Shown: piece by piece, positions 8,665 to 57,090 of the stretch
How the letters are laid out: each line of letters opens with the position of its first letter
How positions within the stretch are numbered: the stretch's first letter is position 1
Assembly: GCF_006345805.1 (NCBI RefSeq)
Contig: NC_043002.1
Span: forward strand, 16,740,001 to 16,804,000
DNA length: 64,000 bases
Source of the DNA: Octopus sinensis
Lineage: Eukaryota
Reading direction: 5' to 3'
Program-made: the position numbers and the translations under genes
Notes under the pieces: model-generated
Databases searched by the model: none
Told to the model about the DNA's origin: nothing
What the model saw: the letters and a program-made list of their open reading frames with translations, nothing else

Positions 8665-9447
8665 AAAATGAAATGAAGTATTGATTGTCTTATTGAATAG
8701 GTGAAATGTTGAATATAAAATATTTGGGGACTCGTATATTTTCATGCGTTATAGTAGTCTTCAAGGTCCCAGGTTCTGACAGGAGTGTTGCAACTGTGGA
8801 ACACTCCTGTCATAGTTGCAGACACTGCTGTTGCAACACTCCAGTCACAACCTGGCACCTTGAAGACTACTATAACGCATGGAAGTATACTAGTCCCATG
8901 TGTGAAGGTGAGTGGCCAAGTGGTTAGGGTGTTGTACTCGCGATCTTATGATTGCGGTTTCAATTCCTGGTCCTAGTCGTACATTGTTTTGTGGAGGAGC
9001 AATGGCCCAGTGGTTAGGGCAGCGGACTCGCGGTCATAGGATCGCGATTTCGATTCCCAGACCGGGTGTTGTGAGTGTTTATTGAGCGAAAACACCTAAA
9101 GCTCCACGAGTCTCCGGCAGGGGATGGTGGTGAACCCTGCTGTACTCTTTCACCACAACTTTCTCTCACTCTTACTTCCTGTTTCTGTTGTACCTGTATT
9201 TCAAAGGGCCGGCCTTGTCACTCTGTGTCACGCTGAATATCCCTGAGAACTACGTTAAGGGTACACGTGTCTGTGGAGTGCTCAGCCACTTACACGTTAA
9301 TTTCACGAGCAGACTGTTCCGTTGATTCGGATCAACCTGAACCCACGTCGTCGTAACCGACGGAGTGCTTCCGTATACTAGTCCCATAATATTTCATATT
9401 AAACATTTCATCTATTCAATAAGACAATCAATACTTCATTTCATTTT
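8665..9447. mobile_element. Fold-back element in (TA)n whose right arm is split by a SINE insertion
   Basis: The left arm (about 8665-8795) pairs with 8830-8899 plus 9388-9447. The SINE block 8900-9372 is flanked by the 15-bp duplication GTATACTAGTCCCAT. Confidence 0.8.
8900..9372 (+). mobile_element. SINE family C (tRNA-Arg-like head) preceded by an extra diverged tRNA head
   Basis: Head 1 lies at 8900-8990 and the full copy at 8991-9372 (TGGCCCAGTGG, GGACTCGCGGTC, TTCGATTCC). A 15-bp TSD encloses both. Confidence 0.88.
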
Positions 9448-9977: not shown

Positions 9978-11197
9978 TTGTGAGAGAATAGTTAAGTAAT
10001 AGTTAATTTAGATATGATACAAAATAGAGTGAGGTGGAGGAAAAAAATAGATGTGTGATAGGTAGGGATATTGAATTTGTAGATCTTAGGCAAAATGGTA
10101 TACATATAAGATTCCAACAGTATTTAAAATTAGTCATTCCAAGTGTTTTTGAATCAAATTGACCTAAAAATAGGGAGTGTATTAGTATGGTCAAATCGAA
10201 AACAGAGAGGTATAAAGAAAGAGAACAAGAAGAGAAAAAGAAAAAGAGTGAGAAGAAGGAAAAGAGAGTAAGAAGAAAAGTAATAAAATAATAAATTAAT
10301 AAGGAAATAAAAAAAACAGGATGTGGGGAATAAAAGAAACAAAAAGAAAAATAAAGAAAAATAAGGTTAAAGTACCAGTTAATTGTCAGTGGAGATAATT
10401 TGAAAGTAGGAGTCGGGAGATAAAGGGTGACTGAGAGAGAAAGGTATTAAAGATAGAAGGAATAGGGGTGGGTGATAAAAGGTAAAGGAGTGGCAAATGT
10501 GTAGTGGTAGAATCTAAGTAGTGGGGTTGAGGGAGGGGGTTAGTAGTAATGAGAAAGGAATTTAGGATTCTGTATTATTTGGTGGGTCAGTTCTTAGTAA
10601 TATAAGAAAATATATTTGTGAAGATGTATACATATGTATACATTAGACATGTACAAATGTATTTATACAGATATTTATACATATCAATATCTATACATGC
10701 AACCATATTCGCACATGTGTACCCACATATACGTGCATCTGCATGTATTATCGCCCCTGCATACGCAGGTATATATACCTTGCATTAAGACCACCGCTTC
10801 ACAAACTATTCGACTGATTTTCTGTATTCTGTATTTGTGTCAACTTCTTAACTCTTGATTCACGATCACAAAGCACTGAACAGTAAATTACAACAATATT
10901 AAAGTGTGATTAATAGCTAAGCTAATTCAATTGCTAATACCTGTTAGCGCGGCTGACAGTCTGAGGCATATAAACATTTGGATATAAGATGTATGGTTTT
11001 AACTGAACAAATATATTATCAGAAATTTGAATAAATTTCGATAGTTCTTAATCTCTTAGTCCTGTTCTTCATACTGTGGTTCTTATATATTTGCTTAAAC
11101 TGTTTGGCCCAGTTTAAGGATGTTATCAAAAAATTGTCGTAAGTTACTAAATGTATGCGAATAATATAGTGAACTACAGAATAATATAATGAAATAG

Positions 11198-11612
11198 GGC
11201 GGCGAGCTGGCAAATTCGCTGGCGCGCTGGACGATGTGCTTGGCGGTATTTCGTCTGCCGCTACGTTCTGAGTTCAAATTCCGCCGAGGTCGACCTTGCC
11301 TTTCATTCTTTCGGGGTCGATTAAATAAGTACCAGTTACGCACTGAGGTCAATATAATCCACTTAATCCGTTTGTCTGTCCTTGTTTGTCCCTTCTGTGT
11401 TTAGCCCCTTGTGGGTAGTAAAGAAATAGCTATTTCGTCTGCCTTTACGTTCTCTGTTCAAATTCCGCCGAAGGCGACTTTGCCTTTCATCATTTCGGGG
11501 TCGATTAAATAAGTACCAGTTACGCACTGGAGTCGATGTAATCTACTTTATCTTGAGGTCTGTCCTTGTTTGTCCCCTGTAAGTTTAGCCCCCTTGGGGT
11601 AAATAAAGATAT
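11198..11612 (+). mobile_element. SINE family A, dimer with headless second unit
   Basis: GGCGGCGAGCTGGC...GTAGTAAAGAAATAG is followed by a restart at TATTTCGTCTGCC (11431). Confidence 0.88.
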
Positions 11613-13707: not shown

Positions 13708-13747
<40 letters not shown>

Positions 13748-13752
<5 letters not shown>

Positions 13753-13893
13753 TAATTTAGGCTATCTAAGAGATACTACCACGCTGGAAATAGCAGTGAA
13801 AACAACTCTAAAAGCACATTTGCTGCTTTTAGAGTCAAGATTTTACTGCTATTTCCAGCGTGGTGGTATCTCTTAGATACCCTAAATTATAAT
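13748..13893. repeat. Fold-back hairpin (about 69-bp arms, 7-nt loop) next to (TA)n
   Basis: AATTATAATTTAGGCTATCTAAGAGATACTACCACGCTGGAAATAGCAGT...CTCTAAAAGCA is mirrored by TGCTTTTAGAG...ACTGCTATTTCCAGCGTGGTGGTATCTCTTAGATACCCTAAATTATAATT. Confidence 0.8.
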
Positions 13894-14222
13894 TTTAAAT
13901 AATTATTACTTTTGAAAATTTTTTTTTCCCATGCTGGCCACCTGATAACATCGGTATTTAAATACCGATCATCTCATTTTTTATATAAATAAATAAACAA
14001 ATAAATATATATATATGCGCACACGTTGTACTACAAAACTAGGTATACAGTTATGAAAACTGAAAACACGTACAATACTTATTTTTATCGAAAAAATTAA
14101 GTTACAATAAAAATATTATTATAGGTATGATAAATGTATTGGTGTGATTAACGACACTGAAAATATCAAACATGAAGCTGAACAATTTAATGTGCTAATA
14201 TTTTAATGAATTAAGTATTCTA

Positions 14223-14437: not shown

Positions 14438-14759
14438 TATAAGTATATGAAAGAATGGAGTTGAACGACTAGTTAACAAATATCCTTTATTCTCGACATA
14501 TGTTTCGAAGGCTGCATATTCCTAATTCCGAAGAAATAAGGAGTACATTATGCGATTATCGCCATAGGTTCCTTGAGAGCGGTCAGCTAAAATTTTTTTG
14601 TGCGTTTTGATGTCGACATAAGTTCCTTGATTTTCCTGATGAGAAATCTGCATAATGTACTCCTTATTCCTTCGGAATTAGGAATATGCAGCCTTCGAAA
14701 CATATGTCGAGAATAAAGGATAATTGTTAACTAGTCGTTCAACTCCATTCTTTCATATA

Positions 14760-14764
<5 letters not shown>
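14438..14764. mobile_element. Fold-back Penelope-like remnant adjacent to (TA)n
   Basis: Arms 14438-14553 and 14650-14764 are reverse complements with about 2 mismatches around a 96-bp spacer. The right part carries a complete hammerhead. Confidence 0.8.
14624..14720 (+). ncRNA. Type-I hammerhead ribozyme motif with intact core
   Basis: TCCTTGATTTTC-CTGATGA(14636-14642)-GAA..CTGCATA...TATGCAG..TTC-GAAA(14697-14700)-CATAT-GTC/GAGAATAAAGGA. Stem I has 11 of 12 pairs, stem III is the palindrome ACATATGT, and the triplet is GUC. Confidence 0.82.
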
Positions 14765-14799
<35 letters not shown>

Positions 14800-20872: not shown

Positions 20873-21253
20873 TATTATGAATAATAAAATGTGAAGTTCC
20901 CAGATCATAACTACAACGTCGAAACAGCAGGGAGAAGGGGCTGTGACAGGAATAGTAGAAGTATTCGTAGTAGTTGCAGTAGCCTTAGTAATAGTTTTCT
21001 TAATAGAAGTATTTCCTGTGGTAATATCTGTAGTAACCACCGTAATTAAAACTGCAAAACCTACATTGTCACTCTATCACAAAAGGCAATTGAATCATTC
21101 CTCAGTGAAACGAGTATTTATCGGTATATAGCATTACTTGTGGTAGCCTCAGAGATTTGAATTATTTCCCTTTAATATTCGAATTTATATCCTTATTACG
21201 TTTATATATTTGTTTTGCAAGATTTTTGGTGTGAAATCGTGTGTTGAAACAGA

Positions 21254-21519
21254 TATTGCTGTATTTAGGGATGGTCATTTTGCCAGTTTAGCCAATAAAA
21301 ACACACGCACTATATATTTGGTGTTACTTTGCTTCAGCGTTATTCACTTTTTACATTAATCTTAATCGTATTAAGATTAATGTAAAAAGATTATAATGTA
21401 ATAAGTTTAAGATTAATGTAAAAAATGAATAACGCTGAAGCAAAGTAACACCAAATATATAGTGCGTGTATTTTTATTTGCTAATCTGGCAAAATGACCA
21501 TTCTTAACTACAACAATAT
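21254..21519. repeat. Fold-back inverted repeat (about 110-bp arms) with a nested short hairpin at the centre
   Basis: 21254-21365 pairs with about 21408-21519. TTTTTACATTAATCTTAAT-CGT-ATTAAGATTAATGTAAAAA forms an additional internal palindrome. Confidence 0.8.
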
Positions 21520-22310: not shown

Positions 22311-22423
22311 TACAGTTCTATATTTACGAGATGAGGAATTACGTACATTATTTACATTCGACAGATATTTGTCCTCATCTTGTTTGTTGTTAACACAATG
22401 TTTCGGGTGATATAACCTCCAGC
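22311..22423 (-). mobile_element. 5'-truncated copy of the family D tail
   Basis: The reverse complement matches 56971-57090 (GCTGGAGG.TATATCA.CCGAAAC.TTGTGTT...ATATAGAACTG). Confidence 0.8.
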
Positions 22424-22590: not shown

Positions 22591-22919
22591 AGGGATATAT
22601 CAGAAGTCTGAAGTACTTTTAATATAAATGGTTACTTTCAGAAGCGTTATTGAACAAAGAGAACCTAATTTTATGATGTTATCACAAGAAAAATATCATG
22701 AAAGTACGTGGTATAGATAAAAATGTTTAGCATGCTAATGTATATAATATATTTTACATATACAGAAATTAATGAATGAGCATCCAATTGAAAGACGCAT
22801 TACCAATCTAGACTTCTGGAAGTCCGGAACAGTTTGTAGAGAACAAAATAGTGTCTAAGTTTCTAAAGAAACAAAATGATAATTAAGTATCCTTCGTGGT
22901 GTAATAAGCGACTTGAATG

Positions 22920-22950
<31 letters not shown>

Positions 22951-22965
22951 TTGTTATACATATGA

Positions 22966-22996
<31 letters not shown>

Positions 22997-23043
22997 GAAA
23001 AAACAAGTCAAAATAGAAAATGCTAAAATAATTTTATAAAGAA

Positions 23044-23091
23044 CATTTCAGTACCGGTTTCGGACATTTTGAGACCTCTTTAACTGTAACG
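23044..23091 (-). ncRNA. Mirror copy of the hammerhead motif in the left arm
   Basis: The reverse complement reads CGTTACAG-TTAAAGA-GGTCTCAAAATGTCC-GAAA-CCGGTA-CTGAAATG. Confidence 0.6.
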
Positions 23092-23491
23092 ATTAAATAT
23101 TTAAATTTAGAAAAATTAAAAGAAAAGTTTTTTTAAAGGAATATTTGTATAGTGTTTAAATATAAGTGGCATTCTGCCTTTCTCTGTCTCCCTTGTTTGC
23201 ACTTGTGTGCTCGAGGCCGTTGTAAATTCTTGGTAGGGTAGAAGAAGAAGAAGGTTGATGAGGAGAGGGGGTGGAAAAATTTGGGAGTGCCTTGATGGTC
23301 GTATTTTGAATGGTCAGTGGCGGCTAGCAGTTGCAGTTCAATTCAGGAGAATATTTCTATTGAAAGGTTTGTTTATGGAATTTGCGTAGGTGTTATACTA
23401 AAAAGCATTAGTGATAAAGTTAAGAGGTAGAAGGTGGAGAAGAAGAAGAAGAAGAAGAAGAAGAAGAAGAAGAAGAAGAAGATGACGATGT

Positions 23492-23525
<34 letters not shown>

Positions 23526-24562
23526 GGAGAACGAAAGAAGAAGATGATGATGATGGTGATGATGACGACGATGATGATGATAATGATGATGATGAAGAAG
23601 AAGAGGAAGAAGAAGAAAAAAGAGAAGGGAGAATATGAATGGGTGAAAGTTGTGAGATGTTGTATGACTTGAAGTTGGCAAGTTATGGATTATAGCTGTG
23701 ATTGGGGCTGATTTGTAATGGATTCTTTGGAATCTTTCAGCCAACACATAGATACTTGCGCCAACAACAAAACACCAGGCTTCAGGATTTTCTCCCTCTA
23801 CCAATTTAGGGACGATACAACCTCGAGACAACGAATAAGTAAAGAAACCCTCTTTATTACAAAATCCAGGCCACTTCTTAACGGGTCTACGACAAACGAT
23901 TAATATACCTCAACTTTAGAATAAAATAAATACACACACAAATATTACATTCCAAAGAATCCATTACAAATCAGCCCCAATCACAGCTATAATCCATAAC
24001 GTGCCAACTTCATGTCATACAACACCTCACTACTTTCACCCATTCATATTCTCCCTTCTCTTTTTTCTTCTTCTTCCTCTTCTTCTACTTCATCATCATC
24101 ATTATCATCATCATCGTCGTCATCATCATCACCATCATCATCATCTTCTTCTTCTCGTTCTCCTTCTTCATCATCATCATCATCATCGCCATCTTCTTCT
24201 TCTTCTTCTTCTTCTCCACCTTCTACCTCTTAACTTTATCACTAATGCTTTTTAGTATAACACCTACGCAAATTCCATAAACAAACCTTTCAATAGAAAT
24301 ATTCTCCTTAATTGAACTGCAACTGCTAGCCGCCACTGACCATTCAAAAATACGACCATCAAGGCACTCCCAAATTTTTCCACCCCCTCTCCTCGTCAAC
24401 CTTCTTCTTCGTCTACCCTACCACGAATTCACAACGGCCTCGAGCACACAAGTGCAAACAAGGGAGACAGAGAAAGGCAGAATGCCACTTATATTTGAAC
24501 ACTATACAAATATTCCTTTAAAAAAACTTTTCTTTTAATTTTTCTAAATTTAATTATTTAAT

Positions 24563-24610
24563 CGTTACAGTTGAAAAGGTCTCAAAATGACCGAAACCGG
24601 TACTGAAATG
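24563..24610 (+). ncRNA. Minimal type-I hammerhead ribozyme motif (variant core)
   Basis: CGTTACAG-TTGAAAA-GGTC(TCAAAAT)GACC-GAAA-CCG-GTA/CTGAAATG. Stem I has 7 of 8 pairs, stem II has 4 bp, and stem III is the palindrome ACCGGT. Confidence 0.7.
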
Positions 24611-24868
24611 TTCTTTATAAAATTATTTTAGCATTTTCTATTTTGACTTGTTTTTTCATATATATCAACTCGTGTGTTCCTTTTCGCCCTTATACATACA
24701 TATATAATATATCATATATATATATAATATATAATAGATATATATATATTCTATAATATATATATAATATATAATATATATATATATATATATATAATAT
24801 ATGTATATAAGTAATATATACATATATATATAAATATATATATATACACATATATATATACTATATAT

Positions 24869-24910
<42 letters not shown>

Positions 24911-25732
24911 TACACACACACACATATATATATATATTAGTAACTATCAGGAGAACAGAGATTACTTCCCTACCGACGCTATGCAGTCATTATGAGGAGA
25001 TCTAGATTTAGCGATGTCATGATAAACTGAGTGTAGTAAATTTTACTAACTGGAGTTTATCTGCATTCAAGGAGTTTAGCCAGGCTTGTTAAACAACCAC
25101 AACAAGTACGGTACCCGCTAGGGCTTTGTATCCGACTTAACCATTATATATATTCATATACAGAGCGAGAGCGAGAGAAAGCAGAGAGAGAGAGAGAGTG
25201 AAAGGAATGAAGCAAGTTTTAGCTGTGTAGTCTTAAAATTAAATTTGCAGTTTATGAGATTACTTATTGGACAACAATTAAGATGAAAATGCGATGCTAT
25301 AAATATCATATTTAATGGGAATGTTTTAATACGCCTTGAAAGGTTGTATGTATACCTGTTTAAATTTTAGAGTGGAATAATATCATGTGCACATTAAGCA
25401 TTTAAGTGGTAATATTTTACAAGAATAAAGGAAATTTTATTTTCTATATTTGTTCATAGATTACAACAGGAAACTAATTGCGTCATATTTAACGATACAT
25501 AGGACCGAACGGTTATTTCTAAAATAGGAGTGATTCAATTGCTTTGACATTCGACCTTATGTGGTGGAAAATATGATTTGTTAAACGGACATGGCGATAC
25601 TTATCTGGAGTAAGTGAATGTTGTACTGCCCGTCATTGTCTATTTTGCGTAAGATGAAAGCCATACAATAGGAACGAGTAGTGATATATTTCACATATAA
25701 ATATGTGTGTGCATGTATACATACATACATAC

Positions 25733-26435: not shown

Positions 26436-27048
26436 TATATAGGCTGGAGTAGCAATTACCATTCTTTCTAACATTCAGACAATGTTAGCAAGGATGAGGG
26501 AACGGATTGTATATCATTTTATCATCTCCGAAAGAGAGTAGAGTAAATAAATTATTTTGACTATGGATCAATATCATTTATTTGTTTACTTCAAAGGCAT
26601 CCACAAGCCTGTCGCATTTGTTAACCTTAACACATACGTATACACACTTAACCACTACATATATATAAGAATAATTTTAAATGCTTCGGGCACAAAGAAA
26701 AAAAAATATTGTGTTACTTTACGCGCGTTGTTCACAACTCCAAATGTTATTTCTGACATTCAACATTATTAAAATACATTTTGGGATTGGTTTCCCCAAG
26801 TTATCAATTAAAAAATTATAACTCACAGAGGTGTTAGAAGGTGCTGCTTTTATAAAAACACAAAAGAAAAACAAGATGTCATTTAGGAATATAAAATATG
26901 CGTCTTCCCAGGATAAAGGAGTAACATTTCATACTGTGATGGCAAATGAAAAGCACGTATAATTTATGATTCAATCCATTAGATATTATTTACACCGCTG
27001 TAAGTGTTCTAGAATATAATATTTAATGTCATATATATCAAAAATAAA

Positions 27049-27275
27049 GGCGGCGAGTTGGCAGAACCGTTAGCACGCCGGGTGGAATGCGTAGCCGTAT
27101 TTTGTCAGCCGTTAAGTCCTGGGTTCTAATTCCGCCGAGGTCGACTTTGCCTTTCATCCTTTCGGGGTCGATAAATTAAGTACCAGTTACTCACTGTGGT
27201 CGATGTAATCGACTTAATACCTATGTCTGTCTTTGTTTGTCCCCTCTATGATTAGCCCCTTTTGGGTAGTAAAAA
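27049..27275 (+). mobile_element. SINE family A monomer
   Basis: Full consensus, flanked by the TSD-like ATATATATCAAAA. Confidence 0.88.
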
Positions 27276-27576
27276 AGTATATATATCAAAAATATAAAAG
27301 AATGGCCAAGATAGATATTAATTTAATATATTAGTAAACTAAACGCATGGAAGATCAAATAGTTAAGAATTTCGTGATGGATTCGATTCAACTACGGAAC
27401 AGTTAGCACAAACACATTTATTATCAACTCTTGACGAAACATTTATTATGAACTAAACTGGTTAGATGGAAATTGTGTAGAAACCTTCGGAGGACTGGGT
27501 ATATAATTTGAAGGCCCAGTCTGGATATGCTTACGCCGCCCTGATTCAGCACTTGAGACTAAAGATAGGAGCATAT

Positions 27577-27994
27577 GGCGGCGAGCTGGCAGAAACGTTA
27601 GCATGCTGGGCGAAATGTTTAGCGGTAATTCGTCTGCCGCTACGTTCTGAGTTCAAATTCCGCCGCAGTCGACTTTGCCTTTCATCATTTCGGGGTCGAT
27701 TAAATAAGTATCAGTTACGCACGGGGGTCGATATAATCGACTTAATCCGTTTGTCTATCCTTGTTTGTCCCTCTCTGTGTTTAGCCCCTTGTGGGTAGTA
27801 AAGAAACAGGTATTTCGTCTGCCGTTACGTTCTGAGTTCAAATTCCGCCGTGGTCGACTTTGCCTTTCATCCTTTCGGGGGTCGGTTAAATAAGTACCAG
27901 TTACGCAGTGGGTTCGATATAATCGACTTAATCCGTTTGTCTGTCCTTGATTGTCGTCTCTGTGTTTAGCCCCTTATGGGTAGTAAAGAAATAT
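27577..27994 (+). mobile_element. SINE family A dimer with 12-bp TSD
   Basis: ATAGGAGCATAT at 27565-27576 and 27995-28006. Confidence 0.9.
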
Positions 27995-28998
27995 ATAGGA
28001 GCATATTTGTCTGTGAAATTCTCACTCGCCTTATGAGTATCTTGCTCTCGCGAAGGAAACATAATCCTGCATAGGTCACAGCGTTGAAATGTATGTGAGA
28101 CTTCAATATATGTGCAATAATAAAATGAAAATAGTGAGGAAATATTTATCTCCTTTTCAAATGTGGAAGTGTATCAGTTTTCAGTTAGAGAAATACTGAG
28201 AATCTAGTATGTTTCAAAGAAATGTACTAAAATAAGAATTTAATTTTGTAGCATTTTTAAATGATAAAACATTCTGGAAAGTAAATTGTTTGCTACCGTT
28301 TGAAATGTTGTACGATTCTTTCCAAACCAAGCACTCAATATCAATTATGTGAGACATTCTTGGAAGATCTAAGGAAAATTTATTACAGAAGAATACCATA
28401 AAGTAAAGTTTTATCATTGATATGGAGAATGTAATAAACACAAGAATTTGTATCAAATATATATATATATATATATAACAAAGGCATTTAGCTATAATCT
28501 GTTAGTTTGAAGGTGTGTATGAATGATGTTTAAAGTTAGCTACTGTTGGTGTTTCTGGTTTTCTCTTCTACCATTGTAACCTGTCATATTTACTTTGACT
28601 ACATTTTTGTAAATATAAATAGAGAGAGAGAGAGCAGGGTGTGTATGTATATATGCTGAATTGCTAAAAATATAAATATATCAAGAGACTATTCCTTTCT
28701 AATAAATTAAACAGTTTATGAAAACTCTTTAAATGATTTTGCTAATAAACAAACAAAATTAAGAAGAAAACAAAGAAAAGTTTTTGGAAACCATCACCAC
28801 TTAATAGTTAATAGCAATAACCTTGATATAACCGGAAGAAGTACACTAACATCAGACCCTTCGAAGAAGGCAGTCCTTAAAACATGTCAAAATTTAGTTA
28901 CAGAATCACATTTAATGTCCAAAATGCATAACGAATATCATTTCCAGTAACAGATCACTCCTTATAGTACGTCTTAAAATTTCTTGATAATTACAGTC

Positions 28999-29328
<330 letters not shown>

Positions 29329-33974: not shown

Positions 33975-34392
33975 CTTATTTCTTTACTGCCCACAAGGGG
34001 CTAAACACAGAGGGGAAAAACAAGGACAGACAAAAGGATTAAGTCGATTATATCGACCCTAGTGCGTAACTGCTACTTAATTTTTCAACCCCGAAAGGAC
34101 GAAAGGCAATGTCGGCCTCGGCGGAATTTGAACTCAGAACGTAACGGCAGACGAAATACCTATTTCTTTACTATTCACAAGGGGATAAACACAGAGGAGA
34201 CAAACAAGGACAGACAAACGGATTAAGTCGATTATATCGACCCTAGTGCGTAACTGCTACTAAGTTTTTCGACCCCGAAAGGATGAAAGGCAAAGTCGAC
34301 CTCGGTGGAATCTGAACTCAGAACGTAGCAGCAGACGAAATACCGCTAAGCATTTCGCCCAGCGTGCTAACTTTTCTGCCAGCTCACCGCGT
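33975..34392 (-). mobile_element. SINE family A dimer with 16-bp TSD
   Basis: TATTTGTTTGCTAATT at 33959-33974 and 34393-34408. Confidence 0.9.
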
Positions 34393-35519
34393 TATTTGTT
34401 TGCTAATTTTGCCAGGCGAAGTGATAAGGAGTGGCAGTTCTAGGCTAGTGTCTACAATTAATATGTTTTCCTCGATCGATGGAATTCTAAGATCTAGATG
34501 TGTAAACCTTTAAAATTAAACGAAATTAAAACTAGTGCAGAATGTTTTGTTTCGTTGATCATATAGTTGCATCACTTTATTAATATTCCCTCCGATGACA
34601 AGGAAGTGTAAACAAACCGACAGTCACATGAGATAAGCAGAACATATTGCAGCTATCAATAATACTTATGTTGCAGGGAACAAAGAGAATGAGCAATTCT
34701 GTCTTTATGAATAATGGAGTTTTATGGGGTACACCGTTAATAATTTAATAACGTAATGGCGAAAGAGGGTGATATTAATTAACCAACGCTATTCGGTCAG
34801 TGGGGATTGGAAATAATCTCAAACAAGATTTAATAGAATAAAACAAAAAGCAAAGTCAAAATAATGTATTTTGTCCGCACTTTGACTATTTCGACTACCT
34901 ATAATCACAGAACTTATTGGTTTATGTTGAAACAGATAATTAGACGGAAATCATAAGATTGCAAATGGCAGGGCGTCACGTACACAAATGCACAGCTATC
35001 TTTAGTGCGCTGTAAAATCCAATTCATTTTCGTCACATAATAAAATTAGGCTCTTTTAATTTATTGATTGTTTAGAAAGCAGAGCTAATAATGTCAATCC
35101 TCATAACTACAATACAGTCGTACGTAGAAATAGTTATTGTTATGGACATGGTTTAGGATTTCTTAGAACACAATGTTTAAAAGAAATATTTCTAAGTTCA
35201 CACGGCCAATGATTACATTTTCACAGTTTAGACCAAGCATCCTAAATTAAATAATTTATTATGCAAGAAACCTGATTTCGGGTAGCAATGAAACCGGGAA
35301 TATTTCTTAATTTAGTTAATCGTTTCCTTTAACACAATCTTGAGTTTGTTGCAATCTTATGTACACACTTAGCTACAGAAATGACTAGAACAGTAATATA
35401 AACTCAACCTTGAGGCCTTGTATTGCTCTGCAAACTACGGTTAATGACATTTACTTTCTCTTTCCTAATCAGTTTCATTAAACATGTACAAAATAATAAC
35501 AGTGTAAAGAACAATGTTG

Positions 35520-45660: not shown

Positions 45661-45894
45661 ACCTATTTCTTTATTACCCACAAAGGGCTAAACACAGTGG
45701 GGACAAACAAGGACAGACATAGGTATTAAGTCGATTACATCGACCCCAGTGCGTAACTGGTACTTAATTTATCGACCCCGAAAGGATGAAAGGCAAAGTC
45801 GACCTCGGCGGAATTTGAACTCACAACGTAACGCAGACGAAATACCGCTAAGCACTTCGCCCAGCGTGCTAACGTTTCTGCCAGCTCGCCGCCG
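45661..45894 (-). mobile_element. SINE family A monomer
   Basis: Full consensus, flanked by TATAGTCCRTTATAC. Confidence 0.88.
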
Positions 45895-46239
45895 TTATAG
45901 TCCATTATACCAACACCAATATTACCACATTTATTATATATGAGTGTTTGTGTGTGTCAGTGAGTGTGTGTGTATTTGTATGCGTGTGTTTGTATGCGTG
46001 TGTTTGTGTGTGTATGTATATTATATATATGGTGGGTTTCCACGGAATTTCCATCACCTAAGCGCCAATGACAAATTATCGGTGTTCTCTAAGCTAATTT
46101 ATGAGACATTTGCCCAAAATAGTGCGCATGGGCCTTGCTTGATATGCCCTGCAAGGAGGAAAAACTCATTCTGTCTTACTATGATGAATCATAAGAATTA
46201 ACGACCTGCCGATCTGTATCAATATTGAAATGCCATAAG

Positions 46240-46445
46240 TGTGAGCTGGCAGAAACGCTAGCACGCCGGGCGAAATGCTTAGCAGTATTTCGTCTGTCTT
46301 TATGTTCTGAGTTCAAATTCTGCGAAGGTCGCCTTTGCCTTTCATCCTCACGGAGTCGATAAATTAAGTACCAGTTGCGAACCGGGATCGATCTAATCGA
46401 GTGGCCTCCACTCCAAAGATTTCGAGCGTTTTGCCTAGATTGTAA
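46240..46445 (+). mobile_element. SINE family A (alternative tail)
   Basis: GAGCTGGCAGAAACGCTAGCACGCCGGGCGAAATG...TGCCTAGATTGTAAAAG. Confidence 0.82.
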
Positions 46446-52190: not shown

Positions 52191-52913
52191 GTCAATAATA
52201 AAGGGTAAAATTAATTAATTATTAATTAATAATTTTACCAAGTAGTGTTCAGTATGTAAAAATACCATTTATACTATATTTAGAACATTACGTAATATAA
52301 TTAGGGTTCAGTAAAAAAAAATTTACTTTACCACACACCGAACTTTTAGAAATAGCAGCCAAAAAATTTAGCTATTTCCTCTACTATAAGAAAAGTCTCC
52401 CAGACAATGTATACTCAAAACTAATTCACGTAGGTATAGAGGGGAAAAATAACGAAAGATCACACGTACATCGATTACTTGAGAACTCCGTTTCTGGATT
52501 AGTTAGATATAGAGATACTAGAAATACATACTCCTATCAACATTTCCGTCATCAGCCCAAGATTTCGTTAAGTTTAAATTTGAGAGCACAAAAAATCGAA
52601 CATACACGTCTGATATGAGTAATCCCAGACAAAACATCTTCGACCGCCAGTACTAACGAATTCAAAAAGTATTCCCCAGCATCTCTATATCTAACTAATC
52701 CAGAAACGGCGTTCTCCAGTAATCGATGTACGTGTGATCTTTCGTTATTTTTCCCTCTATACCTGCGTGAATTATTTTTGTGTATACATTGTCTGGGAGA
52801 CTTTTCTTATAGTAGAGGTAATAGCTAAATTTTTTGGCTGCTATTTCTAAAAGTTCGGTGTGTGGTAAAGTAAATTTTTTTACTGAACCCTAATTATATA
52901 ACGTAATGTTCTA
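52191..52913. mobile_element. Fold-back Penelope-like remnant next to (TA)n
   Basis: Arms 52281-52516 and 52681-52913 are near-identical reverse complements around a 164-bp spacer. An unpaired tail lies at 52191-52280. Confidence 0.8.
52478..52561 (-). ncRNA. Hammerhead-like motif with long stem II
   Basis: The minus strand reads CTTGGG-CTGATGA-CGGA...TCCA-GAAA-CGGA-GTT/CTCAAG. Stem I is 6 bp, the triplet is GUU, and the base of stem II is imperfect. Confidence 0.6.
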
Positions 52914-53566
52914 TATATATTTATATTATAATCAGAGATACTGTCTCACCTTCTTTCTATTTGTTTCTCCGTCTTTCTCGGTCAAATATTTACCGTTTTT
53001 TTACTTATCCACACACCGTCTCTCCCGGTCATTCTCTCTCTTTCTTTGTCTCTCTTCCTTCTTTCTTTTCTGCTTCTCCCTACATTTCTCCACTCCTCTT
53101 ATTTTCTCCTTTCTAGCACCTCCCTCTCTTTGCATTGCCACATCCTCGCCACCACTCTCAGCCTACCTTTATACCTTTCAATACCCGTTTTCTTTCTCCA
53201 CACCCTTTTCGGTACCACTTAGCCATTCAGTTTCTCTTTTCACATAGCGTTCCGCTACTTGACTGCTGACCATTTCATTCATGCACTCTAGGGCTCTCAC
53301 CTAAGCACGCACTTTCAAATCCTGGTGCGTCTCATTTTCTATCCATTTTTACCAATTAATCACTCTAGATAATTCTCAAGGCACATTTTCATTTGCCTTA
53401 CTTCTGAAAGTTTTAACGTACGCTGTCTATAAGCTAAAAGGCCTGCAACGATTGTCATTGGATTACATTTTGTCCATTCCATCATTGATAAAATGAATCT
53501 ATTTTTGATCCACAACGCATCGCAACGAGTGAAGAAATGAAAAATTTCTTATTGAACTTGTTAAAA

Positions 53567-56788: not shown

Positions 56789-57090
56789 GGGCATATGGTG
56801 TAGTGGTTAAGAGCGCGGGCTACTAACCTCAAGATTCCGAGTTCGATTCCAAGCAGTTACCTGAACAATAATAATACCAATACCAATAATAATAATAATA
56901 ATAATAACATCGAAAAATACCTTAGGAATGAGAACCCATGTTCAAAATTTCCCCAAGACACCTGAAGAAGGCTGGAGGGTATATCAGCCGAAACGTTGTG
57001 TTGACAACGAACAAGATGAGGACAAATATCCGTCGAATGTGGATAACGTAAATATTGTACATAATTTATCATCTCTTAAATATAGAACTG
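56789..57090 (+). mobile_element. tRNA-headed SINE (family D) with (AAT)n linker and hammerhead-containing tail
   Basis: A box TGGTGTAGTGG (56796-56806), anticodon-like arm GGGCTACTAACC, B box GAGTTCGATTCC (56839-56850), (AAT)n, then a hammerhead motif at 56957-57002. Confidence 0.8.
56957..57002 (+). ncRNA. Minimal hammerhead motif inside the SINE
   Basis: GACAC-CTGAAGA-A-GGCTG(GAGGGTATAT)CAGCC-GAAA-C-GTT/GTGTT. Stems I and II are 5 bp each, and AACGTT is palindromic. Confidence 0.7.

What the first reader, a model, noticed from the sequence alone, without database searches (positions are those of the whole stretch)
22997..24695. 1.7-kb palindrome enclosing a Penelope GIY-YIG C-terminus, with two differently mutated ribozyme copies
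Seen in sequence: arms of about 740 and 710 bp around a 215-bp spacer that encodes the endonuclease end. The two hammerhead cores read UUGAAAA and UUAAAGA. Inference: the ancestral core was UUGAAGA, a C3U variant. This locus ties the fold-back architecture directly to a Penelope ORF. If transcribed it would form about 700 bp of dsRNA, a potential ADAR or siRNA substrate. The arm differences, including microsatellite length changes, provide an internal clock.
Basis: partly seen in the sequence, partly recalled or inferred. Interest (0 to 1): 0.7.

Follow-up and report, generated by a model that had tools for sequence, protein, structure and literature searches.

The report
Fold-back Penelope insertion with variant hammerheads
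This 1.7-kb palindrome is an ordinary truncated Penelope-like retrotransposon end joined to an inverted copy of itself; one arm keeps a known variant hammerhead-ribozyme motif, the other arm's copy is likely decayed, and nothing here shows that it is transcribed.

Summary
The palindrome is real: arms 22989-23733 and 23949-24665, a 215-bp spacer, 2.5% divergence outside the microsatellite. The spacer encodes the last 55 codons of a C-terminal GIY-YIG endonuclease, closest to Neptune/Nematis-type Penelope-like elements (best E 1.9e-9). The layout is the published one for these elements: a 5'-truncated copy, an inverted truncated copy at its 5' end, a 27-bp tail at one end only, and a (TA)n target.

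In contigs of a high-copy family from 4 public runs, the majority core is UUGAAAA, the known U3-A8 covariant, not UUGAAGA. The right ribozyme matches its family; the left one carries three likely private changes (G5A, A8G, a stem II mismatch). Both arms share a base found in at most 0.2% of family depth, so they come from one source. The two ribozymes face opposite ways, and a transcript through both arms would bury either one in duplex.

Not tested: reads across the inversion junction, transcription, editing, small RNAs. siRNA from Penelope inverted repeats is already published. Verdict: a new member of a known kind, low interest.

The parts
22917..22988 (.). Left flank, degenerate (TA)n microsatellite: likely insertion target
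   Evidence: sequence
22989..23733 (-). Left arm: inverted, 5'-truncated copy of the element's 3' end (pLTR), without tail; its outer end lies inside the element's own short AT run and continues into the (TA)n flank
23049..23086 (-). Left hammerhead motif, likely decayed: G5A (23081), A8G (23078), stem II U-U mismatch (23064)
   Evidence: arm alignment; family tables
23734..23903 (+). Last 55 codons and stop of a C-terminal GIY-YIG endonuclease; keeps the last His of CCHH and the conserved R, E and N
23904..23948 (+). Start of the 3' untranslated region, present once (rest of the spacer)
23949..24665 (+). Right arm: sense pLTR/3' region, with a compound (TCA/TCT)n microsatellite at about 24060-24215
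   Evidence: high-copy family (24220-24695 laid)
24568..24605 (+). Right hammerhead, minimal type I: 3-bp stem I, core UUGAAAA (U3-A8), 4-bp stem II, palindromic ACCGGU at positions 15.1-16.1; predicted cut after 24602
   Evidence: numbering and U3-A8 variant from PMC4209133
24666..24692 (+). 27-bp extension (tail) on this arm only; family contigs also cover it
   Evidence: depth bins 24668-24695, pieces 16, 24, 32
24693..24937 (.). Right flank, degenerate (TA)n/(CA)n microsatellite; no target-site duplication can be read
   Evidence: sequence

Best explanation
This is a 5'-truncated end of a Penelope-like retrotransposon (endonuclease end, pseudo-LTR with hammerhead motif, 27-bp tail) joined head to head with an inverted, shorter copy of the same end inside a (TA)n microsatellite; both arms were likely copied from one source during a single insertion and have likely decayed neutrally since. 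Shown: the layout, the protein match, the high-copy family, the family-majority U3-A8 core, the one-sided tail, family ends running into (TA)n, and a rare base shared by both arms. Inferred from published work on these elements: the element-encoded GIY-YIG nicked AT-rich DNA; reverse transcription began at two sites about 27 nt apart (one with tail, one without); both products stopped early, after about 0.96 kb and 0.75 kb; their truncated 5' ends were joined. The locus encodes no functional protein. The right ribozyme would need a second copy on the same strand to form helix III, and this locus offers none.
For: Protein: 13 hits at E<=0.001 among 1.84 billion, best 1.9e-9; 5 of the 13 carry PF01541 GIY-YIG, P0010 also carries RVT_1, and one (P0013) is an unrelated repeat protein. 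The peptide aligns to the last ~50 residues of 745-772-aa RT-EN proteins at 45-56%. Family: 4122, 5853, 2440 and 4414 contigs laid on 24220-24695 from 4 runs, 3 studies. None of the 40 rows shown lies at 24571-24577, and loose-end consensuses from 54, 51 and 37 contigs also read TTGAAAA. Loose ends run into (TA)n behind 24654 (32 contigs) and 24665 (75 contigs) in run X3. Both arms have G at 24444, where 99.8-100% of family depth has A. Arm differences fall on both sides: 4 right-derived, 6 inferred left-derived. The same layout is described in PMC8557442 and PMC3846280; two RT start sites that define the tail in PMC11167929; U3-A8 and opposite-strand pairs of hammerheads in PMC4209133.
Against: 13 variant rows were hidden; by its per-kind counts they could include changes of the same type as the left-arm ones (A>G, G>A, A>T, T>A), so 5 of the 6 'left-derived' calls rest on absence from the better-supported rows. 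Summed contig depth is not a copy number. No target-site duplication can be read. Pfam finds nothing on the spacer peptide itself and a word-based protein search found nothing. A shared rare base also fits later DNA-level duplication or gene conversion. 3 of the 10 differences fall in the 38-nt ribozyme (P about 0.047, post hoc).
Confidence: 0.8

Rival explanations
1. A single truncated copy inserted first; the left arm arose later by DNA-level fold-back duplication, or the arms were homogenised by gene conversion. Same parts, different timing; arm divergence would then date that event, not the insertion.
For: The shared rare base at 24444 fits any single-source origin. A 5-bp local inverted repeat with a 4-nt loop (23721-23734) sits at the junction (sequence).
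Against: The left arm stops at 24665-equivalent, where family contigs also end in (TA)n (75 contigs in X3), and it copies neither the tail nor flank. A DNA-level duplication has no reason to respect that end. Inverted 5' copies are typical of these elements.
Confidence: 0.1
2. Two independent insertions of different family members landed head to head.
For: The arms differ at 16 sites and at one indel (24346) that also varies within the family. Three differences cluster in the ribozyme.
Against: The arms agree at all 12 family-variable sites checked where they do not differ, including 24444, where at most 0.2% of family depth has their base.
Confidence: 0.04
3. The palindrome is an assembly or fold-back read artefact.
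For: Such structures trouble assemblies (PMC8557442). The junction was not tested on reads.
Against: The arms differ by 16 substitutions, with the left arm holding the family base at 4 sites where the right arm does not. Only one arm has the tail, the symmetry stops at the element's ends, and both flanks lead into different unique sequence.
Confidence: 0.03
4. The locus is a co-opted hairpin-RNA source, read through from the DUF2615 gene 4.3 kb away on the minus strand and used for editing or siRNA.
For: Predicted duplex of about 700 pairs, longest unbroken helix 115-123 bp. An open DUF2615 reading frame points towards it. Penelope inverted repeats give siRNA in Drosophila (PMC3681739).
Against: The arms show roughly symmetric, uncompensated divergence and a 36-nt length difference. 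Several interspersed repeats lie between the gene and the locus.
Confidence: 0.03

Closest known systems
Canonical EN+ Penelope-like elements of the Neptune/Nematis type (Craig et al. 2021, PMC8557442)
   Same: C-terminal GIY-YIG; 5' truncation; inverted truncated copy at the 5' end; tail at one end; hammerhead in the pLTR; microsatellite target. Closest proteins carry the CX2-5CxxC linker and CCHH.
   Different: The tail is 27 bp against the 30-40 quoted. The pLTR region is long (at least 717 bp) and holds a compound trinucleotide microsatellite. Linker and RT are absent from this truncated copy, so Neptune against Nematis is unresolved.
Adineta vaga Pen2a/Pen2 inserts with inverted pLTRs (Arkhipova et al. 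2013, PMC3846280)
   Same: Inverted pLTR completes the insert; an optional tail (31 bp) sits on one of the inverted pLTRs; 5'-truncated members flanked by inverted pLTRs without TSD are described.
   Different: Those pLTRs are about 200 bp and some inserts have 9-10-bp TSDs; none is readable here.
Schistosoma mansoni Cercyon minimal hammerheads with U3-A8 core (Cervera and De la Pena 2014, PMC4209133)
   Same: U3-A8 covariant core in a PLE (about 1,300 hits there); palindromic 15.2-16.2/loop 3; pairs of motifs on opposite strands.
   Different: Here helix II is 4 bp, there is no extra base between positions 9 and 10.1, and a small helix III is present. The motifs are about 1.5 kb apart against 100-700 bp. 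U3-A8 is the family majority in the contigs examined.
PAc Poseidon of Anolis (Frangieh et al. 2024, PMC11167929)
   Same: Two ends a tail-length apart; AT-rich target; C3-G8-type core pair needed for cleavage.
   Different: PAc starts reverse transcription at a site not homologous to the cut DNA, and its ORF starts inside the ribozyme. Here the tail-less end lies in a short AT run like the target, and no open frame follows the ribozyme within the insert.
Rearranged Penelope copies with long inverted repeats in Drosophila (Evgen'ev 2013, PMC3681739)
   Same: Inverted-repeat copies able to form dsRNA.
   Different: There siRNAs map to the inverted regions; here no RNA evidence was obtained.

Membership tests
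EN+ Penelope-like element | [quoted passage not shown] | tested here: met
   Peptide aligns to the last ~50 aa of RT-EN proteins and ends in a stop at 23901-23903; R, E and N conserved. The GIY-YIG core motif itself is truncated away.
EN+ Penelope-like element | Penelope-type reverse transcriptase in the same ORF | not testable with these tools
   Absent from this truncated copy (tblastn of 8 relatives on the window); present in close relatives P0010, P0018, P0019.
EN+ Penelope-like element | pLTR in direct or inverted arrangement, 5'-truncated | tested here: met
   Inverted, head-to-head, both copies truncated.
EN+ Penelope-like element | Optional tail of about 30-40 bp at one end | tested here: met
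   27-bp extension on the right arm only, covered by family contigs; slightly shorter than the quoted range.
EN+ Penelope-like element | Hammerhead motif in the pLTR | tested here: met
   24568-24605.
EN+ Penelope-like element | Target-site duplication (variable, often unreadable in microsatellites) | tested here: inconclusive
   Both flanks are degenerate (TA)n.
Neptune or Nematis clade | CX2-5CxxC linker between RT and EN | tested here: inconclusive
   Not in the window; present in P0002, P0007, P0010, P0018, P0019, P0021.
Neptune or Nematis clade | Placement in an RT phylogeny with named references | not tested
   No RT at the locus and no named reference sequences in hand.
Naiad | N-terminal endonuclease and no canonical hammerhead | tested here: not met
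   The endonuclease ends in a stop followed by a pLTR with a hammerhead. Naiad and Neptune endonucleases are not separable by sequence alone.
Hydra clade | CCHH motif absent | tested here: not met
   The last His is present in the window peptide and the full motif in its relatives.
Minimal type I hammerhead, U3-A8 variant | Core with a 3-8 Watson-Crick pair, G5, GAAA, U16.1-H17 (right copy) | tested here: met
   24571-24577 and 24593-24602; family majority.
Minimal type I hammerhead, U3-A8 variant | Same core (left copy) | tested here: not met
   G5A, U3-G8 and a stem II mismatch.
Minimal type I hammerhead, U3-A8 variant | Palindromic helix III/loop 3 allowing dimer folding | tested here: met
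   ACCGGU self-duplex -8.3 kcal/mol; the monomer needs a 2-nt loop that the energy model forbids.
Minimal type I hammerhead, U3-A8 variant | Self-cleavage | not testable with these tools
   Needs an in vitro assay.
Non-LTR retrozyme | Head-to-tail tandem units, each with a hammerhead, no protein | tested here: not met
   Units are inverted and an ORF end is present; definition from bioRxiv 10.64898/2026.07.22.740005.
TIR/Foldback DNA transposon or MITE (features recalled) | Element-defining terminal inverted repeats with a transposase-type TSD | tested here: not met
   The ends are asymmetric (tail on one side), the inner breakpoints cut through an ORF and a 3' region, and the content is retroelement-derived.

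The most novel reading that the evidence does not exclude
A very high-copy Neptune-like family in a likely cephalopod genome has fixed a U3-A8 hammerhead and kept it under selection (a subfamily appears to swap the G-C pair at the base of stem II for A-U). It primes reverse transcription by pairing its own AT-rich ends with nicked (TA)n targets, unlike the non-homologous priming shown for Poseidon. Its fold-back insertions would seed the genome with long hairpins that feed A-to-I editing or siRNA.
Probability: 0.12. Interest if true: 0.5.

Novelty: new member of a known kind. Interest (0 to 1): 0.17.

Why it matters
As a single locus it matters little: it is a clean example of a published Penelope insertion pattern. 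Its use is as a specimen. It gives both termini (with and without tail) of one insertion, an arm-to-arm clock (2.5%), and a pointer to a large family with a U3-A8 hammerhead. Searches of the held library for cephalopod plus hammerhead ribozyme plus retrotransposon listed only Craig 2021, so this family's ribozyme may be undescribed; supplements that I did not open could list it. If the family's fold-back copies proved to be transcribed and edited at scale, they would bear on the source of dsRNA in animals with heavy A-to-I editing.

Tried and rejected
No whole genome is held for this window, so no genome-wide copy alignment or tree was possible. No other copy of this family lies in the window. 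Rfam: no match at gathering score; only a sub-threshold HH9 match. Pfam on the spacer peptide: nothing. Word-based protein search for longer relatives: 4 candidates, none significant. ESM Atlas: leads only (unnamed clusters at 0.92-0.95, one GIY-YIG 21% cluster at 0.89). Metagenome pattern scan for the ribozyme: 2 loci (L001, L002), both in prokaryote-like coding context and rejected as unrelated. Minimum-energy folds of the short motifs are not better than shuffles (z -1.26 to 0.83), so folding energy does not support the ribozyme; motif topology and family conservation do. Earlier-findings look-ups: nothing. PMC9977147 and PMC12602865 passages held nothing on end homology. Rejected: UUGAAGA as ancestor; microsatellite lengths as a clock; an A-to-G editing signature in the arm differences (7 transitions against 9 transversions); MITE/Foldback, retrozyme, Naiad and Hydra membership.

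Full report
OBSERVATION. The left arm is 22989-23733 (745 bp), the right arm 23949-24665 (717 bp), and the spacer 23734-23948 (215 bp). Aligned in sense orientation, the arms give 693 matches, 16 substitutions and 44 gap columns. All but one gap column lies in a compound trinucleotide block, the largest difference being 36 nt. Outside that block 14 of 560 columns differ, 2.5%. The right arm continues for 27 bp (24666-24692) that the left arm lacks. Both flanks are degenerate (TA)n and lead on into different sequence. No other copy of this repeat lies in the window, and no genome is held.

THE SPACER. The + frame from the junction runs 55 codons to a stop at 23901-23903. Pfam and a word-based search missed it. 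phmmer against 1.84 billion representatives returned 13 proteins at E<=0.001, best 1.9e-9. Five of the 13 carry PF01541 GIY-YIG, P0010 (745 aa) also has RVT_1, seven are short proteins without a Pfam call, and P0013 is an unrelated repeat protein. A search with P0002 added 23 longer relatives, one labelled as from Argonauta hians. The peptide aligns to the last ~50 residues of these proteins at 39-56%. [quoted passage not shown] The relatives have a C-x4-C-x2-C linker before the endonuclease, which Craig et al. 2021 (PMC8557442; passages seen) give as the mark of Neptune and Nematis. Naiad endonucleases are indistinguishable by sequence, but they are N-terminal and lack hammerheads; here a stop and a hammerhead-bearing region follow. 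A cephalopod is my inference from that homolog, a mollusc-leaning Atlas cluster and recalled resemblance of the window's interspersed repeats to octopus repeats.

THE RIBOZYME. The right copy (24568-24605, +) has a 3-bp stem I, core UUGAAAA, a 4-bp stem II, GAAA, and the palindrome ACCGGU spanning positions 15.1-16.1; the predicted cut is after 24602. A descriptor for this topology hit twice in the window (here and at 56962) against 0.025 per simulated window (40 simulations; descriptor written after seeing the motif). Folding energy alone is not significant and Rfam gives only a sub-threshold HH9 match. Cervera and De la Pena 2014 (PMC4209133; parts 1-2 of 4 read) describe this class in Penelope pLTRs. 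They report a U3-A8 core in Schistosoma Cercyon elements (about 1,300 hits), pairs of motifs on opposite strands, and low activity that needs dimers. Perreault et al. 2011 (PMC3088659; passages) report natural U3-A8 covariation and cite in vitro activity.

FAMILY TEST OF THE CORE. Twenty of 24 listed runs hold the region or part of it. I laid 4 of them (3 organism labels, 3 studies; X1 may be the source sample) on 24220-24695 only. 4122, 5853, 2440 and 4414 contigs were laid, so this is a high-copy family, though summed depth is not a copy number. None of the 40 variant rows shown falls in the core (24571-24577). Loose-end consensuses before 24586, from 54, 51 and 37 contigs in three runs, also read TTGAAAA, followed by AGTC in place of GGTC. 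24592 C>T occurs at 8-34%, which would restore the stem II base pair as A-U; the linkage is inferred, not shown. Caveat: 13 less-supported rows were hidden, and by type they could include core changes, as minor variants. The majority core is therefore UUGAAAA. That G5A inactivates hammerheads is recalled, not tested.

ONE SOURCE, SYMMETRIC DECAY. Of the 10 arm differences in 24220-24665, four (24309, 24395, 24411, 24424) have the left arm agreeing with 80-100% of family depth, so they arose in the right arm. Six (24430, 24497, 24554, 24573, 24576, 24590) are not among the listed family variants and are inferred to have arisen in the left arm. Both arms carry G at 24444, where 99.8-100% of depth has A, and they agree at all 12 family-variable sites checked where they do not differ. 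This argues against two independent insertions and, with the asymmetric ends and distinct flanks, against a fold-back read artefact. Divergence is JC 0.025. Using the calibration quoted for Octopus in PMC13282606 (JC 0.09 = 25 My; passages), my own arithmetic gives about 3.5 My (1.7-5.6 from the Poisson range 7-22). That holds only if the host and rate apply and no gene conversion occurred.

ENDS. In run X3 family contigs run into (TA)n behind 24654 (32 contigs) and 24665 (75 contigs), while others continue through 24666-24692. The extension is thus a family tail and the left arm ends at a family-typical tail-less site. Frangieh et al. 2024 (PMC11167929; parts 1-2 of 4) showed for Poseidon that the tail is the stretch between two RT start sites and that AT-rich DNA is cut. 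Craig 2021 and Arkhipova et al. 2013 (PMC3846280; passages) describe the inverted truncated copy at the 5' end with a tail at one end as typical; the latter proposes self-priming on an antisense template for junctions that carry palindromes. How the inverted copy forms is not settled in the passages I saw. One detail differs from Poseidon: the tail-less end lies inside the element's own 8-nt AT run (24657-24664), which resembles the target. That hints at homology-assisted priming but could equally reflect a captured old target. A search for Neptune, microsatellite and microhomology found no treatment of it in the two papers opened.

IF TRANSCRIBED. Either strand would fold into about 700 inter-arm pairs (696 and 705), with 36 of 38 ribozyme nucleotides paired to the other arm. 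The two motifs are on opposite strands, so they cannot form the same-strand dimer that helix III requires. The locus is therefore unlikely to self-cleave. A DUF2615 reading frame without introns (28999-29328, minus strand; Pfam E 6e-34) points towards the locus from 4.3 kb; read-through would carry the decayed left motif in sense. Nothing here tests transcription. siRNA from Penelope inverted repeats is published for Drosophila (PMC3681739; passages).

NOVELTY. Each element of the finding has a published precedent. What may be unrecorded is this particular family and its U3-A8 majority core: one search listed only Craig 2021, and searches showed no cephalopod hammerhead paper in their listings. 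I opened no supplements; those of PMC4209133 and PMC8557442 list hammerhead motifs and could include it. Of bioRxiv 10.64898/2026.07.22.740005 I read part 1 of 5. Verdict: new member of a known kind, interest 0.17.

Noticed in passing
window 28999-29328 (-): Intronless open frame matching DUF2615 (PF11027, E 6e-34; the name SMIM14 is recalled). A single-exon gene or a retrocopy, pointing towards the palindrome from 4.3 kb.
   Followed up: partly
window 56955-57000 (+) and 22323-22423 (-): A second hammerhead-bearing repeat: canonical CUGAAGA core, extra base, 6-bp stem II at 56962. An 82%-identical remnant lacking the core lies about 570 bp left of the palindrome. Likely another Penelope family.
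   Followed up: partly
window 52275-52919: Inverted repeat, 245-bp arms at 95%, about 158-bp spacer, beside (TA)n; no hammerhead found by my scan.
   Followed up: no
window 14438-14765: Inverted repeat, 121-bp arms at 97.5%, right end running into (TA)n.
   Followed up: no
window 21253-21519, 13741-13901, 8727-8897: Three short-loop hairpins (arms about 70-120 bp); 13741-13901 abuts (TA)n. They score as sub-threshold miRNA-like hairpins in Rfam; no similarity was found between 21253-21519 and other window sequence.
   Followed up: no
family contigs laid on window 24571-24592: A subfamily with AGTC after the core and C>T at 24592 (8-34%), suggesting a G-C to A-U swap at the usually conserved 10.1-11.1 pair; linkage not shown.
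   Followed up: partly
window 27040-27997, 11192-11599, 33990-34397, 45731-46400 and others: Many 80-90% identical copies of interspersed SINE-like repeats in both orientations; these too would form dsRNA if co-transcribed.
   Followed up: no
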